DNA of 64,000 nt, taken from positions 186,001-250,000 of the forward strand of contig NW_020843644.1 of assembly GCF_003704095.1 (NCBI RefSeq), given 5' to 3'. Source of the stretch: Pocillopora damicornis. Lineage: Eukaryota. The translations under genes and the position numbers were made by a program. Below the pieces are notes generated by a model. The model had not been told where the DNA came from and did no database searches. It was given only the letters and a program-made list of their open reading frames with translations. How positions within the stretch are numbered: the first letter of the stretch is position 1; each line of letters begins with the position of its first letter. Positions 37,747 through 49,418 of this stretch are shown here, piece after piece.

Positions 37747-42439
<4,693 letters not shown>

Positions 42440-43613
42440 TACTACATTTATACCATGTATAACACTCTGTATAGGAGATATTTTAAACGAAAAACTCAAA
42501 CAACGATTGTCTGCTACTGAAATGTTATGCAATCCTACATTTATTAGTAGGCTTTGCGTGTTGTCACGGATGATGCAAAATTTCGGATAGGTAATTTTAA
42601 TGACTTTCTTTGAACCAATGTCGAGTTGATCGTTGAAATATCGAGAAGTTTTTGGAAAACCGAAGGAACTGAAGTCGTCATTTACTTATGACTTGATGAG
42701 CTATTTTGGTGTTTAATTGTAAACTATGTTTATCACTCAACATTCAATACATCAGAAAACATCTCATTTCTCCTTTAAAACACGTAAAAAATTCTTTGAT
42801 GAAATAGATGAAGGAATACTTGGGTTATTTTAAATTATTGTGGTTAAATATAAATGTTCTTTTAGAAATCAACTTATTGTTGTGAGCAGACGAGGAAAAA
42901 AAAACACTCTAGAAACAACTCGTTAAGGCCTCTTAGGCGCTTTCTAGTAGTGAAGAATTTTCCACGACGTCACTATTGCGTGCTGTAATACATATGACAT
43001 TAAATTTTAAATAGCTTTGCAGGATATTTTTCGTAACTGTGTTCTGACAAATTAGTTTTTCGTAACCACAGATTCCTTAGAAGTGAACTAGTATACGTAG
43101 TATTATAAATTATGGCATATACCCCTAATTGAAAAGGAGACAGCGAGTTTAATTAGACGTCCATCACAAAATATCGAACAGTAAACATCCTTCCTCCTTC
43201 TGACAGAAAAGAGATGAAAAACATGCAAAACGGATCTATTTTGTCTAAGACTTTTGAACCTTCTGGGCAAGTAGCTAAGAATGTTAAAAAAAAAAAATTA
43301 AGAGACCACATGGAGTCTTTTGTAATTTTTGTCGGTAGTTGTCACAAACATCGTTTTTTTTTGTCAGGTGTTGCTAGGAAGTTTTCAAAATATTTCAAGA
43401 GATTTGGATAGACATTTCTGGAACAAAAGCGTTCGGAAAAATTTTAAATTATTTTCTAATCAATCATAGTACAGAGTCTAAATTAATTGTTTTCGAGATA
43501 TGTAATAGGTAAATGCTTGTCCAATATATGTCTACTATGTTTTCAGTAGAATACACATTTTTTCATGAAAAGCTGTTTATAGACGGAAATAGCCAGGGGA
43601 GCTGAAATTAAAT

Positions 43614-44885
43614 CTAGATACTTTCACATCTGTTCATGCCTAGAGACCAATCTTTGTCTTCGTTGTTTTGAACGCCTCTGCACGAAATGTTTTCTTCCAG
43701 TTGTGTTAGTGCTCTCTGCAATTGTTGCACAGCCCTTTTTCTTGTCAAGCGGATGTTTTCGTCTCGATTTGCTTCAATGCCATCCAATTCGATCAAAAGA
43801 CGCGTAAGTTTTTCTTCAATAGCTAGGTACGCCTTACTCTTGCTACTTTCATCAAAAGCAAGTACTTCCTTTTCAAGCTTTTCTGCTTTCTTGAGAATAC
43901 TTTGAATTATTAAAAGTTTATTTTTGCTTTCATTTTCAACTGAAAATTCCAGTGGTAATGAGTCTTCACTTTGAGACTCATCGCCTTTGTCTGTGTATTC
44001 TTTAATGTATTCCTTAAATTGTTCAGTATTGGTCTTGGTGATTTCCTCCCTAACATCTCCACCGCCGTTGAAATAAGATTTTCCCAAAGCTTCTTGGCTC
44101 GTAGCCATATCGAAGTAGTCCTTTTTGTCAAAATTAACGGCGCAAGCGTTGTCAATGTCGAGTACAGTGTAATTATCCTTCTTCATATCGACCTCTGCTT
44201 CCTTGGTAGTTTTTTCTTCAACTTGAACGCTTTCTGAGCCGCGGGCATCTTCTATTTTGCCATCTGCCTCGATCACTTTATTTTCTTTTAGAATCTCCTC
44301 TCCGTTTTCACCCCCAACTTTTACTTTCTCATCGACTTCAACCTGAATGGGAATACTGAAAGACGTCTTGGGTAGAGAGATTTTACTAATCTCTGGCGCG
44401 GAGGGCGAAGTTTCTCGTAAACTTCTGGCACTATACGTATTTCTTCTTCCCAGTCTTACAGGAAGACTTGATCCGGACAAGTAATGATCTTCAAACACCT
44501 TCTGCAAATCTCCAACAAATGGATTTTCTCTGAAAAAATGTCTTCTTTGTTCTTTTCGTTCGGTGTGATTTTGTTGTTCACAAGGCTCATCTTCACTCGA
44601 TTTTTGAACTCGCTGAAAATGTTCAGGCAAACTATATTTCCACAATTTGTATTGCTGATTTTTGATGTTTCCATTTTTCCTTTGTTTCGACGAATCATCG
44701 GTGTTTTGTGTGTTTTCGTGTGCTGTCTTTGAAGATCTTTCTTTAGAAGCCTCGCACGGGTTTGAAACAGTTTCCACGACCAATTTCAGTTTCGGTCTAC
44801 TGGGCAAACTCGAGGATCGAGAGAAAATGCGGGGTTTTCCCTGCTTGAACTCGGGGTGAACTGTTACCGGGATCTCTCTGCTCAT
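43614..44885 (-). CDS. Intronless BAG-domain co-chaperone (BAG3-like: IPV motifs plus C-terminal BAG domain), 423 aa
   Basis: C-terminal IQSILKKAEKLEKEVLAF...YLAIEEKLTRLLIELDGIEANRDENIRLTRKRAVQQLQRAL is a BAG domain. Also REIPVTV and SIPIQVE (IPV-like) and RSSSLP. Confidence 0.88.
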   Translation of the reverse strand: MSREIPVTVHPEFKQGKPRIFSRSSSLPSRPKLKLVVETVSNPCEASKERSSKTAHENTQNTDDSSKQRKNGNIKNQQYKLWKYSLPEHFQRVQKSSEDEPCEQQNHTERKEQRRHFFRENPFVGDLQKVFEDHYLSGSSLPVRLGRRNTYSARSLRETSPSAPEISKISLPKTSFSIPIQVEVDEKVKVGGENGEEILKENKVIEADGKIEDARGSESVQVEEKTTKEAEVDMKKDNYTVLDIDNACAVNFDKKDYFDMATSQEALGKSYFNGGGDVREEITKTNTEQFKEYIKEYTDKGDESQSEDSLPLEFSVENESKNKLLIIQSILKKAEKLEKEVLAFDESSKSKAYLAIEEKLTRLLIELDGIEANRDENIRLTRKRAVQQLQRALTQLEENISCRGVQNNEDKDWSLGMNRCESI

Positions 44886-45242
44886 AGTTAAGTCTCGACA
44901 CGAGTAACTTAGTCATCTAACAAGACGTTGTAGCGATTGAAAAGACATAAGGATTAGAGATGAGTCCCAGAAGATGAGGGATTTAAAGAATGGAAAACAA
45001 ATGCTCGCGGTATTGATCATGTTGATTTACTACTTGAACTTGGTCACGCATACTCAAGTTCACGCTGGGTGCACGCGCGAACATCGTTCTCGTTTTTACC
45101 AGTAAAAATTTTGCAAGTATGAAAAAGTATCTTCATCAAATAAAACTGCTTTATGATTCTTAATACTCCAATTTAGGTACCGGTTTTCTCAGCTTAGAAT
45201 TTCCGTGCTCGACAGAATCTAGAACATCGATACAAATGGATC

Positions 45243-45257
45243 TTTCTAGAACGTTCG
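45243..45257. promoter_or_regulatory. Heat-shock element (perfect 3-unit)
   Basis: tTTCtaGAAcgTTCg matches nTTCnnGAAnnTTCn, about 360 bp upstream of the BAG gene ATG. Confidence 0.75.
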
Positions 45258-46061
45258 ATCTCTCAACATTGTCAAAATATTTGTGGCAATAACTGCGATT
45301 TTAAGCGTCGTGTGGTTTGACAGAGACTGATTTCGACATTGTCAACAAAGCAAGACTAAGGTTTGATATTGTCAAAAGAAAACTTGATGATGTTACGTTT
45401 GCCCTCCGATATTCCTAACTTTTTTTCTACAACTCCCCAGACCTGCTGGTGAAAACCTGGTCATCTGATAGGCGGATTTCCTGTTTCGTGGCGTGAAGTC
45501 TGAACTTTTCGCGAATACCTGACTGAAACCTGATTCTTTCTTCCTCTCTTTGCAATTCACGCGGAGTTAAGAGCCACGAATATCACCCGATTATTGAACG
45601 AATATTACTCCTAAAATTCCGGTTTCTGCTCTTTCAACTTCGTATTGTAGCTCATTTCTTTTGTATCTTTAGTTTTTTTTTAAATGTGGTGTCTCTCTTT
45701 ATTTTTCAATCTACTTCCTTTCATCGATAGCGCCCTCTCCGATAGGGTGGTATGTATTACGCATAAATGCCGCCCTGCCGGCTCTTCGCGTTACCACCAC
45801 TCCCCCTCCCCGCCCCCGGTCTCTTCTTGCGTATCTGTTCAGAAAGCGTGGGGCAAAATATTGTTCAATTGTAACAAATCCCACGTTTCCTGACTGAAAA
45901 TTGCATTTCCATATCAATCCAACGTTTCGAAATGTCAGGAAACTGCGGAAGATGAGAGCTCAAGGAAATGTCTATTGGAGAACGCGACGAAGGTTACTGC
46001 TAAAACCGTGATGAACCGCACTGGACTCCAGTCTTTTCGCGCGGTCATTATGGAGGTTGTC

Positions 46062-46076
46062 GGAACTTTCTAGCAC
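46062..46076. promoter_or_regulatory. Heat-shock element (2 perfect units + 1 mismatched)
   Basis: gGAActTTCtaGCAc, about 165 bp upstream of the DNAJB ATG. Confidence 0.55.
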
Positions 46077-46238
46077 GGCACGACGTTAACATCTTTGCCG
46101 TTAATTTTTATCGTCAACGTCACGATTTTATTATTATTTACCCTGGATAAAGGTCTGGACCCATCTGTGCAATAAAAACTTATGTAACCGGGTCGAAAAC
46201 AACTAGAAGTGAATAGTTCCGTAGACGTCCACAAAACA

Positions 46239-49200
46239 ATGGGGAAAGATTATTACAAGATCTTGGATATTCCGCGCAACGCAAGCGAAGACGAGATTAG
46301 GAAAGCTTACCGAAAGATGGCTTTGAAGTATCATCCAGACAAAAACAAAAGCACTGGAGCAGAAGACCAGTTCAAAGAAATAGCAGAAGCGTATGAAGTT
46401 CTTAGCGACCCTCAAAAAAGGGAGATATTTGATAAGTACGGTGAAGAAGGCTTGAAAGGAACTGGCAAACCTCAAGCGAGTACGACAGAGTTTAATTTTC
46501 AAATGCCGCCTGGATTTACAGCTTTTACTTTCCATGGAGACCCGATGTCCACGTTTTCAAGAGTCTTTGGACGAGACGATCCCTTTAGAGGTAGGTCTAC
46601 ATGCATTGAAATGTCGAGATAATATCTCAAGTTGAATATCGCTTTGAAAATTTTACATGCTAATTCAATATAACTGAAAAGTTTTGTTCGATGCAATACT
46701 ATGCCTGGTCGCATTATTGGACCTCGCTGCACCTGTTATATTTAGAGTTGTATGCTATTTTACACAAAGACGTTCATTAACACGACTCAATTTTTTTTGT
46801 ATAACTTTCTTCAAAATTGTTTCTCTATTTTATGCTCTATTTTTGCTAAGATGTAACGTCAATCTTCCAAATGATGAAGTGTTTTCTAAGATGATTTCGG
46901 TATGCCTTCCCCTTTCATGGTCGTTGAACTATAGAAATTAGCCTTAGTTGTTAATAAATTTTTTCTTTTGTGCCAATTAAATTTATGGACTTGTGGCTGG
47001 GGAAGGAAAATAATACCATTAGAAATAGCCCATTGTTGTTAAACAGACTGAGATAAACTGCTACTGTCATCTAAGGGGGCAATCGCATGGAAAATTAAGG
47101 GAACTTTCTAGAGTTTTTATTTTAATTGTTGATTTAGGGAAGTATTCAGAGAAGTCAGTTTAAACATTATCCCTAGCTGAAAAGCTATTGAAATTTATTT
47201 TTCTTGGAAGAAATGTTGCTTTTTGGTCTAAATTTGACATCAGTTGGAAGAAACTAGAACATTTTAAGTCAGGAAATATTCATCATTCTATACTGGAAAG
47301 TTTTTTTTTCCTTTTAAAAAAAATCTCCCTTTGTGGTATAGAGTTGCAAAATAGAAAAAATCAGTGAAAAAACTAGAACATTCTGTTTTGTTTGCAAACT
47401 CAATGAAAGCAAACATTCAAACATTGTTGTCTGGGTTTATCTCATAAAAAAAAAAATAGGCCATATTTTTCTTGCTATGGCTCAAGAACTAAAGAAGAAT
47501 TAACTCATCAACATTCTTATTTCTTTAGCATGGTATTAACAGGGTCAGTTTGGATATTTTTTGCACTTAAGTTTAAGAAACTTGTGCACAAAACCGACTG
47601 ATGTGCTCAATTAAGTTCAGTTTCTGGAGAACACAATTTTCCTGGTCCTAGCTGCCATTGTCAGAAAATTTTCACTGTGGTGCAAAAAATGAGAACACCT
47701 CTTTCTAGCAATGCATAGGAATTTTCTGGAAAGTCTACTTTACAACAGTGATTGTTATAAATTATTCACACTAATTTAGGTCCATTCAATACAGAATTTA
47801 AGCTATTTGTTCCTTGTGTCTGTATGATTTTTCTAGAAGCTTTTTATTCCTATTTCTAACTTTAAAAAAAACATATAGCTTAATTTATAGGGATTGAATG
47901 AACCATTTTTTCATTTGCTCTGTTTTGCATTTTCTGAAAAAGAGTAAGGGATAATTATTGAGTTGTGCAAATTGCTAATTTTTGTGTTCTGGCATTCTGA
48001 GTGTTAGTTTTGTGGCATGTTTTAAAGTTAGACTGAAGTGGTGTGCAGGTCTTTCCAGGTGGTCCTTTGATGGGGAAGTATGCTCCAGAAACCATATGAT
48101 TATGATCTTTGTCAAGTGAAAGAAATTCGTAACGAAATGTAAAATTGTTTCCATATGTGCTCTAATTTGACTTTGGACACAGCCATTTTAAAAGAGAGCA
48201 GCTGATTTGCCACACAATTTTCTAAATAGCATCATCTGTAGTTGAAGTAAAGCATATATAGGACAATTTTATGTTAAGTTAATTTTCTCTTCAGATTCTC
48301 AAAATGCACTCAGTGTGCCATCCACTAATAAATTCACCTATACCTCTAAATTGCTGCAATGAAATGTAAATTTTGGAGCATACTTTTCCTTTAAATTGGA
48401 AGCCTTCAAACAGAGACTTTTGTTCCACCTTGATTGCAAGCACCTTGCTAGCCATCCAGTTCTAATTTGAAATTTCTTTCCCAGTCAAGGATGTACAGAT
48501 TATTTGTTGTAGAAACTGGTACTTTTTCTAAGTGAGATGCTTTTTCATGTGTTTTCTAGGTTTTCCAAATGATGGGCCATCTAAAGTTATTCAAACACCA
48601 TTATTTATTCTTCTGATGATCAAACATAATGTTTTTAAGTCATTTGTGTTTTGTTTATGGATATATTACTAATGGTGCACTCTCTACTAGGAATGTTCGA
48701 TCAAGGTTTTGGCATGCAAGGTGGGGCATTTGGAGGAGGTGACTTTTCAGATATGGGAGGTTTCCATTCCAGCTTTCGTCATCAGAGTTACCCTGGCTTC
48801 AGTCGTCAGAGATCATCATCCTTTGAAGATATGCATTCCTTTGCTCGCAAAAAGGCTCAAGATCCTCCCATAGAGAAATACCTCATGGTGACTCTAGAGG
48901 AGTTGTTAACAGGAACTACCAAAAAACTGAAGATCATTAAAAAAGTTTTGAATCAAGACCGAGTGACAACTCACCCTGAAGAAAAGATTCTCACCATTGA
49001 AGTGAAAAAGGGTTGGAAGGAAGGAACAAAAATTACTTTCCCAGAAGAAGGGGACCAAAAACCACACACTGTTCCTGCTGACATTGTTTTCACAATCAAG
49101 GACAAGCCCCATGTTAATTTCAAACGAGATCAAGATAATAACATTTTGTACACTGCTCCCTTATCTCTCAGAGATGCCTTAACTGGTCATACAACAGCTT

Positions 49201-49418
49201 CAATGGTACCAGTTCCAACACTGGATGGACGGACTGTCAATATTCCATTAAACAATATCATTAAACCTGGGGCAAAACGCCGAATTAAAGGTGAAGGTTT
49301 GCCACTACCCAAGAGGCTGAATCAGCGAGCTGACATGATGGTGGAATTTGAAGTTGTGTTTCCAACACAACTTTCTACATCAAACATTGATTTATTAAAG
49401 AATGCTTTACCTGAGTGA
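46239..49418 (+). CDS. DNAJB4: Class B J-protein (Hsp40), DNAJB1/DNAJB4-like, 359 aa. Exons 46239-46590, 48691-49418
   Basis: MGKDYYKIL...[10 protein letters not shown]...[11 protein letters not shown] (J domain with HPD), a G/F-rich linker, and QDPPIE...[19 protein letters not shown]...PADIVF...GEGLP C-terminal domains. The spliced ORF is 1080 nt. The exact vertebrate paralog (B1/B4/B5) is not resolvable. Confidence 0.93.
47100..47845. promoter_or_regulatory. Intronic HSE cluster in the DNAJB intron
   Basis: GAActTTCtaGAG (47101), GAAcaTTC (~47376), perfect GAAttTTCtgGAA (47719-47731) and TTCtaGAAgcTTT (47831). Confidence 0.55.

What the first reader, a model, noticed from the sequence alone, without database searches (positions are those of the whole stretch)
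43614..49418. Head-to-head BAG3-like / DNAJB heat-shock module sharing an HSE-bearing promoter
Seen: a BAG-domain gene and a class B J-protein gene diverge from a 1.35-kb spacer. The spacer has a perfect HSE (45243-45257), a near-perfect one (46062-46076) and weaker GAA/TTC arrays at 45197-45228. Established: BAG proteins (nucleotide-exchange factors) and DNAJB1/4 (ATPase stimulators) act on opposite steps of the Hsp70 cycle, both are HSF1 targets, and they are unlinked in human. Inference: a single HSF-controlled bidirectional cassette co-inducing both co-chaperones, potentially relevant to coral heat tolerance.
Basis: partly seen in the sequence, partly recalled or inferred. Interest (0 to 1): 0.7.

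Follow-up and report, generated by a model that had tools for sequence, protein, structure and literature searches.

The report
Triplicated heat-shock co-chaperone gene pairs
In this coral, two helper genes of the Hsp70 chaperone (a BAG gene and a DNAJB gene) sit head to head as one of three such pairs on one contig; heat-shock-type DNA elements flank each gene, and the six likely counterparts all rose under acute heat in a related coral, so the pairs are likely switched on by heat shock factor.

Summary
Confirmed and extended. An intronless BAG gene (43614-44885, minus) and a two-exon class B DNAJ gene (46239-49418) diverge from a 1,353-bp spacer; the genome is Pocillopora damicornis by exact protein match. 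Two more head-to-head BAG/DNAJB pairs lie 41-51 kb further along the contig. Eight of 12 perfect HSEs in 204 kb fall inside the three cassettes, whose spacers share nothing but HSEs. The pair and both named HSEs are conserved in related corals; the 'weaker arrays' are not. Locus tags and accessions place the cluster in Oculina, Orbicella, Stylophora, Acropora and Montipora. In a published Stylophora heat experiment all six likely orthologues rose at 34.5 C while four neighbours fell. Refinements: each gene has its own proximal HSE (804 bp apart), so back-to-back promoters fit better than one shared element; this window's BAG rose only after recovery; the strongest responder is pair 2, outside the window. 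The BAG lacks BAG3's WW domain but keeps IPV-like and 14-3-3-like motifs. HSF binding was not tested. A new variant of head-to-head heat-shock gene pairs; not found in ten literature searches.

The parts
43614..44885 (-). BAG-1 gene, single open frame, 423 aa, WW-less BAG3/BAG4-type co-chaperone
   Evidence: ORF; Pfam; RNA contigs cover it without a joint in 4 of 4 runs; 29 homologues
43692..43907 (-). BAG domain (aa 327-398), keeping the EExL..LD..RK pattern of Hsp70-binding BAG domains
   Evidence: PF02179 E 1.3e-13; nearest solved BAG4 7.6e-10, BAG5 4.6e-9, BAG3 8.4e-9; pattern in 34 of 34 family members; the role of those residues is recalled
44346..44354 (-). second IPV-like motif (SFSIPIQVE, aa 178-180), repeated up to three times in relatives
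   Evidence: 34 of 34 members; mean 2.9 IPV-like motifs per protein against 0.2 expected
44802..44819 (-). RSSSLP, 14-3-3 mode-I-like motif between the two IPV-like motifs
   Evidence: 30 of 34 members, 0.01 expected per protein; motif label recalled
44865..44873 (-). first IPV motif (REIPV, aa 5-7)
   Evidence: 34 of 34 members
44886..46238 (.). 1,353-bp divergent spacer, CpG-rich
   Evidence: CpG o/e 1.27 against 0.26 in the intron and 0.71 over 204 kb; 1.26-1.29 kb in 5 relatives
45238..45257 (.). HSE-A (perfect three units 45243-45257 plus a fourth), 358-372 bp upstream of the BAG ATG
   Evidence: present in 7 of 7 related loci, perfect in 4; isolated conserved block 45227-45278, blastn E 1e-6 and 8e-5
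45994..46238 (+). conserved DNAJB-proximal block (promoter and/or 5' leader)
   Evidence: blastn block continuous with exon 1 in L022 and L026; alignment
46062..46076 (.). HSE-B (one mismatch), 163-177 bp upstream of the DNAJB ATG
   Evidence: present in 5 of 5 related loci that reach it; best-conserved 15-mer of the spacer
46117..46122 (.). conserved ACGTCA (CRE/ATF-like half site; label recalled)
   Evidence: a TGACGT also lies 63 bp before DNAJB-2
46239..46590 (+). DNAJB-1 exon 1 (J domain with HPD, start of G/F region)
   Evidence: PF00226; HPD at aa 32
46591..48690 (+). DNAJB-1 intron, phase 1, GT..AG
   Evidence: joint in 4 of 4 runs
47718..47732 (.). perfect three-unit HSE inside the intron; sequence not conserved
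   Evidence: no intronic block in blastn against L022/L026
48691..49418 (+). DNAJB-1 exon 2 (C-terminal domains); whole protein 359 aa
   Evidence: PF01556; 359-aa database protein P0368

Best explanation
This is one of three head-to-head BAG/DNAJB gene pairs on one contig, conserved across stony corals, in which each gene has its own nearby heat-shock element, so that heat shock factor likely switches on an Hsp70 loader (DNAJB) and a predicted Hsp70 release factor (BAG) from back-to-back promoters. Shown here: the genes, splicing, three pairs, HSE enrichment and footprints, and conservation of order. Shown in a relative (Stylophora, genes matched by order and annotation, not by sequence): all six rise under acute heat while neighbours fall. 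Inferred: the pair arose once and was duplicated twice as a unit before the Acropora/Pocillopora split; HSF1 trimers bind HSE-A and HSE-B and the short CpG-rich spacer lets them open both promoters; DNAJB stimulates Hsp70 ATP hydrolysis while BAG-1 exchanges nucleotide and may bridge small HSPs through its IPV-like motifs (from mammalian BAG3/DNAJB knowledge). The copies look tuned differently: pair 2 (intronless DNAJB, TATA-like boxes) is the strong responder, pair 1 in this window is weaker with a late BAG response, and pair 3 carries a BAG that has lost the Hsp70-binding pattern.
For: Three pairs, all divergent. 8 of 12 perfect HSEs in 204 kb lie in the 12.6 kb of the cassettes (binomial 8e-8); 4 in the 2.6 kb of spacers against 0.06 expected; the only spacer-to-spacer blastn hits below E 0.2 are HSEs. 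Pair divergent in 5 of 7 related loci (2 too short), both HSEs kept. Oculina locus tags G021852 (BAG-1), G021853 (DNAJB-1), G021858 (BAG-2), G021861 (BAG-3); Montipora capricornis XP_068756403 / XP_068756406; Acropora muricata XP_067050711 / 727 / 733. Stylophora Spis19167-19179 show the same order; at 34.5 C acute: 19169 +1.86, 19170 +3.16, 19174 +5.83, 19175 +7.54, 19176 +3.87, 19177 +1.62; TAF12 -2.91, TRAPPC3 -2.58, KDM1A -1.52, PTGR2 -4.28; HSF1 +3.74 and HSPA8-like +4.43 in the same sheet fix the sign; about 13% of genes were up at either time. Same HSE grammar upstream of one of two intronless HSP70 genes and two of four small HSP loci. [quoted passage not shown]
Against: No HSF binding or reporter data. 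The neighbours TAF12/TRAPPC3/KDM1A are conserved too, so linkage alone shows no selection on the pair. The 7 related loci are about 4 close species. BAG-1's likely orthologue was significant only after recovery (padj 0.017). In the long-term 34.5 C experiment, where Hsp70/Hsp68 rose about +2.7 to +3.0, none of the six was listed as up and BAG-2 was down (-1.33) after recovery. 34.5 C changed 39% of the transcriptome and was near lethal; the 32 and 29.5 C acute sheets were cut from the file. One DNAJB4-annotated transcript in another study fell (-5.7 at 4 h; species and cassette not determined). RNA contigs of 3 of 4 runs run 5' past HSE-B (to 45926, 45962, 46046), so it may lie in a transcribed leader (contigs cannot show starts). 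No perfect or one-mismatch HSE in the upstream stretch scanned for the second HSP70 gene or for one of the four small HSP loci.
Confidence: 0.62

Rival explanations
1. Frozen neighbourhood: the pair is old microsynteny copied twice by local duplication; each gene is an HSF target on its own and the head-to-head layout has no function.
For: TRAPPC3 follows BAG-1 in 3 of 3 long related loci and TAF12-TRAPPC3-BAG-DNAJB-KDM1A order holds in Stylophora; the middle of the spacer is not alignable; partners differ in timing and size of response; the human genes are unlinked (BAG3 at 10q26.11, PMC5478690 passage; DNAJB positions recalled).
Against: All three deeply diverged paralogous pairs stay head to head within 0.56-1.35 kb; pair-1 spacer length is nearly constant (1.26-1.35 kb) while its middle turns over.
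Confidence: 0.2
2. One true bidirectional promoter: a single HSF platform (HSE-A or HSE-B) drives both genes at once.
For: RNA contigs of two studies end about 780-810 bp apart (45146-45151 and 45926-45962); CpG-rich spacer; in pair 3 contigs run unbroken through the spacer in 4 of 4 runs.
Against: Two separately conserved HSEs 804 bp apart, each near one gene; pair 3 likewise has two perfect HSEs, each about 170-200 bp from its own ATG; unequal timing of pair 1.
Confidence: 0.12
3. Pair 1 is driven mainly by another stress factor (CRE/ATF/XBP1 type) or is largely constitutive, the HSEs being minor.
For: Conserved ACGTCA at 46117-46122; late, weak BAG-1 response and low base means (29 and 77) in Stylophora; HSE-B is imperfect in all 5 relatives and here.
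Against: HSE-B is the best-conserved 15-mer of the spacer and HSE-A an isolated conserved island, a perfect four-unit site in 3 of 7 relatives.
Confidence: 0.06

Closest known systems
Head-to-head heat-shock gene pairs (human HSPD1/HSPE1, Drosophila inverted hsp70 pairs, C. elegans hsp-16 pairs; recalled, not checked in a call)
   Same: Divergent chaperone genes, short spacer, HSEs between them, joint heat induction. Stylophora HSPD1 and HSPE1 have consecutive IDs (Spis4735/4736), so that layout probably exists in corals too.
   Different: Partners here are a J-protein and a BAG protein, which act on a third, unlinked chaperone (no HSP70 match on this contig among 36 matches); the unit is triplicated; each gene has its own HSE.
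Human BAG3 (PMC5478690, passages)
   Same: C-terminal BAG domain, two IPV motifs with 14-3-3-type motif(s) between them, disordered middle, two HSEs in the promoter bound by HSF1.
   Different: No WW domain (0 of 34), no proline-rich region (3.5% Pro), intronless, and linked to a DNAJB gene; domain slightly closer to BAG4 by score.
Insect Samui / starvin-type BAG proteins
   Same: Nearest Atlas cluster is 'Samui-like' (0.89, lead only); Stylophora BAG-2 is annotated Samui; starvin is called the functional BAG3 orthologue.
   Different: Full-length similarity is limited to 10 library representatives, those with names being stony corals, with a drop from E 1e-49 to 1e-17; linkage to DnaJ genes in insects not tested.
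DNAJB1/4/5 class B J-proteins (Drosophila DnaJ-1)
   Same: J domain with HPD, G/F region, DnaJ_C; 49-58% identity to fish DNAJB1b over exon 2. In Ciona hsp70, dnaJb4 and bag3 are co-upregulated (PMC10294541 passages).
   Different: Three coral paralogues, each paired with a BAG gene; the Ciona paper says nothing on linkage (0 hits for 'chromosome', 'adjacent').

Membership tests
BAG3 proper | C-terminal BAG domain with Hsp70-contact pattern | tested here: met
   PF02179, alignment to BAG3/BAG4 structures, 34 of 34
BAG3 proper | N-terminal WW domain | tested here: not met
   no Pfam WW hit; 0 of 34 by pattern
BAG3 proper | two IPV motifs | tested here: met
   IPV aa 5, IPI aa 178; 2-4 per protein in 34 of 34
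BAG3 proper | 14-3-3 motifs between the IPV motifs | tested here: met
   RSxSxP in 30 of 34; sequence pattern only
BAG3 proper | proline-rich PxxP region before the BAG domain | tested here: not met
   2 scattered PxxP, 3.5% proline
BAG3 proper | nucleotide exchange on Hsp70 and binding of small HSPs | not testable with these tools
   needs biochemistry
Class B J-protein (DNAJB1/4/5 type) | N-terminal J domain with HPD, G/F region, DnaJ_C, no zinc finger | tested here: met
   no DnaJ zinc-finger hit; database name 'subfamily B member 4-like'
HSF target gene | at least three alternating nGAAn units near the gene | tested here: met
   definition from PMC9065632 passage; conserved
HSF target gene | heat induction | tested here: inconclusive
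   likely orthologues up in Stylophora at 34.5 C acute, BAG-1 only after recovery, none up in the long-term sheets; no data for this species
HSF target gene | HSF binding and dependence | not testable with these tools
   4 HSF-domain matches in the genome; no ChIP data
Bidirectional promoter (head-to-head, starts < 1 kb apart, shared element) | head-to-head orientation | tested here: met
Bidirectional promoter (head-to-head, starts < 1 kb apart, shared element) | transcription starts under 1 kb apart | tested here: inconclusive
   contig ends 45146-45151 / 45926-45962 in two studies, 44970-44988 / 46046-46100 in two others; contigs cannot show starts
Bidirectional promoter (head-to-head, starts < 1 kb apart, shared element) | one element acts on both genes | not testable with these tools
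   two separate HSEs argue against a single element; needs a reporter

The most novel reading that the evidence does not exclude
Stony corals keep an operon-like Hsp70 co-chaperone cluster: an ancient BAG/DNAJB unit, held head to head by shared HSF control and triplicated into three tuned cassettes (a fast intronless one, a slower BAG3-like one, and one whose BAG has become a conserved, CxCxxC-bearing non-exchanging regulator), whose HSE content and copy number (extra BAG-2 copies in Acropora) set part of the difference in heat-shock response between coral lineages.
Probability: 0.25. Interest if true: 0.8.

Novelty: new variant of a known kind. Interest (0 to 1): 0.58.

Why it matters
Coral HSF1 is needed for larval heat survival in Acropora and species differ in their dependence on it (bioRxiv 10.64898/2026.04.01.714264, passages), but its direct targets are mostly predictions. 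This cluster supplies six linked candidates with footprinted HSEs, one of them among the most significant heat-induced genes in Stylophora (Spis19175, rank 12 of 10,045), in short promoters (0.56-1.35 kb) suited to reporters and CRISPR. The BAG partners are easily overlooked: databases call them 'uncharacterized', and none of the 40 cluster members read for this window's BAG carries a name. It also makes testable whether genes for opposite steps of the Hsp70 cycle are kept linked for joint control.

Tried and rejected
Complex prediction of the second IPV-like segment (aa 160-195) with a coral small-HSP domain dimer: no verdict (0.32, mark 0.34; controls 0.00), not used either way. Atlas look-alikes all under 0.9, leads only. 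Earlier scan findings: three look-ups, nothing. 'Weaker arrays' 45197-45228 and a gapped HSE-like run at 45928-45947 rejected as functional candidates: 8 of 32 and 4 of 20 columns conserved. Transcription starts and expression levels could not be read from contigs; depths were not used to rank genes. Search for these genes' accessions in paper main texts: 0 hits. Supplements of PMC10235041, PMC12333670 and PMC13104882 held no usable rows. Three papers were not held. Pairing outside stony corals could not be tested: Nematostella has a likely DNAJB-1 orthologue (tree support 88/93, not firm) and Spis19177's listed hit is a Nematostella protein, but no anemone DNA was available. An HSP70 gene in the cluster was looked for and not found. 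A DNAJ paralogue on another contig (C2707) has no BAG match and no perfect HSE in the 10 kb taken. The tree used 29 C-terminal fragments chosen from 56 hits plus cluster members; the DNAJB-3 branch is long and its place unsure, so no order of duplications is claimed.
Full report
Observation. The window holds a 423-aa single-frame BAG gene on the minus strand (43614-44885; PF02179 E 1.3e-13) and a class B J-protein gene on the plus strand (exon 1 46239-46590, exon 2 48691-49418, 359 aa). The intron is skipped in contigs of 4 of 4 RNA runs. The spacer is 1,353 bp, CpG o/e 1.27. HSE-A (45243-45257) is perfect, HSE-B (46062-46076) has one mismatch; the 'weaker arrays' do not pass the scan. The genome has 5,669 perfect three-unit sites in 234 Mb (reversed control 4,488), so one perfect site in such a spacer has P about 0.03: suggestive only.

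The pair is one of three. Searching the own genome gave two more DNAJB genes and a second BAG on the same contig. Pair 2: BAG-2 (C279:276246-277100, minus, PF02179 1.7e-12) and an intronless DNAJB-2 (277658-278692), spacer 557 bp. Pair 3: DNAJB-3 (282235-285117, minus) and BAG-3 (285806-286555, plus; PF02179 E 3e-4, below cut-off), spacer 688 bp. BAG-3 is identical to pdam_00004587 of Pocillopora damicornis. RNA contigs cover the pair 2 and 3 genes over the 10 kb laid. Of 12 perfect HSEs in the 204 kb read, 8 lie in the three cassettes (12.6 kb; binomial 8e-8) and 4 in the spacers; the spacers share no alignable sequence except HSEs. The paralogous origin makes these counts not fully independent. 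DNAJB-1 and -3 have a phase-1 intron at about the same place; DNAJB-2 has none.

Conservation. A scan of metagenome contigs with the BAG-1 alignment gave 7 loci from 84 pattern matches, about four close species; two have proteins in a cluster with Orbicella faveolata. In 5 of 7 the DNAJB gene diverges 1.26-1.29 kb away; the other 2 end too soon; TRAPPC3 follows BAG in 3 of 3 long loci. HSE-A is present in 7 of 7 (perfect in 4), HSE-B in 5 of 5. In the alignment of 6 of the 7 loci (L023, near-identical to L022, left out) HSE-B is the best-conserved 15-mer and HSE-A an isolated island. Further out, evidence is by identifiers, which show adjacency but not orientation: Oculina G021852/G021853/G021858/G021861; Orbicella BAG-1, BAG-2 and DNAJB-1 on one scaffold; Montipora capricornis XP_068756403/406; Acropora muricata XP_067050711/727/733; BAG and DNAJB proteins listed with equal contig lengths of 7,751, 9,268, 9,368 and 114,195 bp. 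Montipora foliosa accessions are not close (XP_068698012, XP_068696076), which says nothing either way. The cluster thus spans both major stony-coral clades (clade labels recalled).

Expression. Savary et al. 2021 (PMC8126839; passages and Dataset S2, cut at 4.0 M characters) list Stylophora genes in the same order as this contig: TAF12 19167, TRAPPC3 19168, BAG4-like 19169, DNAJB5-like 19170, KDM1A 19171, Samui-like BAG 19174, DnaJ-1 19175, DNAJB5-like 19176, unnamed 19177, PTGR2 19179 (TAF12, KDM1A and PTGR2 here were named by reading frames with Pfam support only for TRAPP and amine oxidase). After 3 h at 34.5 C, five of the six cassette genes were up at both sampling points (+3.16, +5.83, +7.54, +3.87, +1.62) and BAG-1's counterpart only after recovery (+1.86); the four named neighbours fell. 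About 13% of genes were up at either time. In the long-term sheets none was up although Hsp70s were, and BAG-2 fell after recovery along with HSP110 and a small HSP. The paper's main text has no mention of DnaJ or heat shock. One DNAJB4-annotated transcript in PMC11639872's supplement was down, unassignable. A Pocillopora field study highlights an unnamed DNAJ gene (bioRxiv 2021.11.12.468330, passages); I could not tell which.

The proteins. BAG-1's domain is closest to BAG4, BAG5 and BAG3 structures. All 34 family members examined keep the EExL..LD..RK pattern and 2-4 IPV-like motifs; 30 have RSxSxP; none has a WW-like motif. Human BAG3 has WW, two IPV, two 14-3-3 motifs, PxxP and BAG, with two HSEs bound by HSF1 (PMC5478690, passages). 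So BAG-1 likely works like BAG3 in part but is not a member by the full definition. BAG-2 keeps the pattern in 10 of 19 by the strict expression; BAG-3 in 0 of 23, yet is 43-99% conserved over its length and has CxCxxC in 23 of 23. A separate intron-containing Pro/Gln-rich BAG gene lies on C295.

Mechanism. Best reading: back-to-back HSF-responsive promoters, one HSE per gene, in an ancient unit duplicated twice (0.62). Rivals: linkage without function (0.20), one shared element (0.12), non-HSF control of pair 1 (0.06). HSF binding, starts and cross-talk between the two halves are untested.

Novelty. Head-to-head heat-shock pairs are known (recalled examples). A BAG/DNAJB pair or this coral cluster did not appear in the listings of ten searches of the held library (38 and 93 aimed at the arrangement). 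Subscription papers and preprint supplements were not searchable, and Datasets S1-S4 of bioRxiv 10.64898/2026.04.01.714264 (seen: passages and section 6) may list these genes. Other papers seen: PMC13104882, PMC10294541, PMC9065632, PMC13768828, bioRxiv 2026.07.18.739195 (passages); PMC10235041, PMC12333670 (supplement searches only); PMC11701869 (supplement list only). Verdict: real, conserved, probably HSF-controlled, richer than first described; new variant of a known kind; interest 0.58.

Noticed in passing
L004:5806-6555 (+) (G000:C279:285806-286555): BAG-3: conserved coral protein with a degenerate BAG domain lacking the Hsp70-contact pattern (0 of 23) and an invariant CxCxxC (23 of 23); six distant BAG representatives also carry CxCxxC.
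   Followed up: partly
L003:7101-7657: Pair-2 spacer has TATA-like boxes on both sides, an HSE array about 100-130 bp before the intronless DNAJB, two AP-1-like and one CRE-like motif; its counterpart is the strongest heat responder in Stylophora.
   Followed up: partly
window 42319-45151: RNA contigs in two runs run unbroken from the spliced TRAPPC3 last exon into the BAG-1 frame, suggesting overlapping 3' ends of the convergent genes; TRAPPC3 fell while BAG-1 rose in Stylophora.
   Followed up: no
window 46591-48690; L004:3048-4800; L022, L026: HSEs cluster in DNAJB introns (1 perfect in DNAJB-1, 3 in DNAJB-3) and downstream of BAG-1 in relatives (6 in 2.3-2.8 kb against 0.2-0.3 per kb elsewhere) without sequence conservation: possible site turnover.
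   Followed up: partly
L015:8206-10000: Contigs span DNAJB-3 exon 1, the whole spacer and BAG-3 in 4 of 4 runs, hinting at overlapping 5' ends; retained-intron contigs are present for DNAJB-3 and, in one run, DNAJB-1.
   Followed up: no
clusters of P0409: Acropora millepora and A. palmata each list two BAG-2-like loci, suggesting a further duplication in Acropora.
   Followed up: no
L016:6162-8673 (-) (G000:C295): Intron-containing gene with a 600-aa Pro/Gln-rich exon between BAG-like segments; candidate conventional BAG3/BAG4-type gene.
   Followed up: partly
L003:2887-3879 (+): Single-frame coiled-coil gene with a weak CC2-LZ (NEMO/ABIN-like) match, E 6e-7, just before pair 2.
   Followed up: no
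window 44979-45063: Conserved block with TGAACT/GGTCA-like half sites upstream of the BAG ATG (blastn E 4e-6 with L026); nuclear-receptor-like label is recalled.
   Followed up: no
G000:C279:139438-146929 (L012, L011): A Runx-like gene and reverse-transcriptase/helicase fragments lie upstream of the window (names recalled).
   Followed up: no
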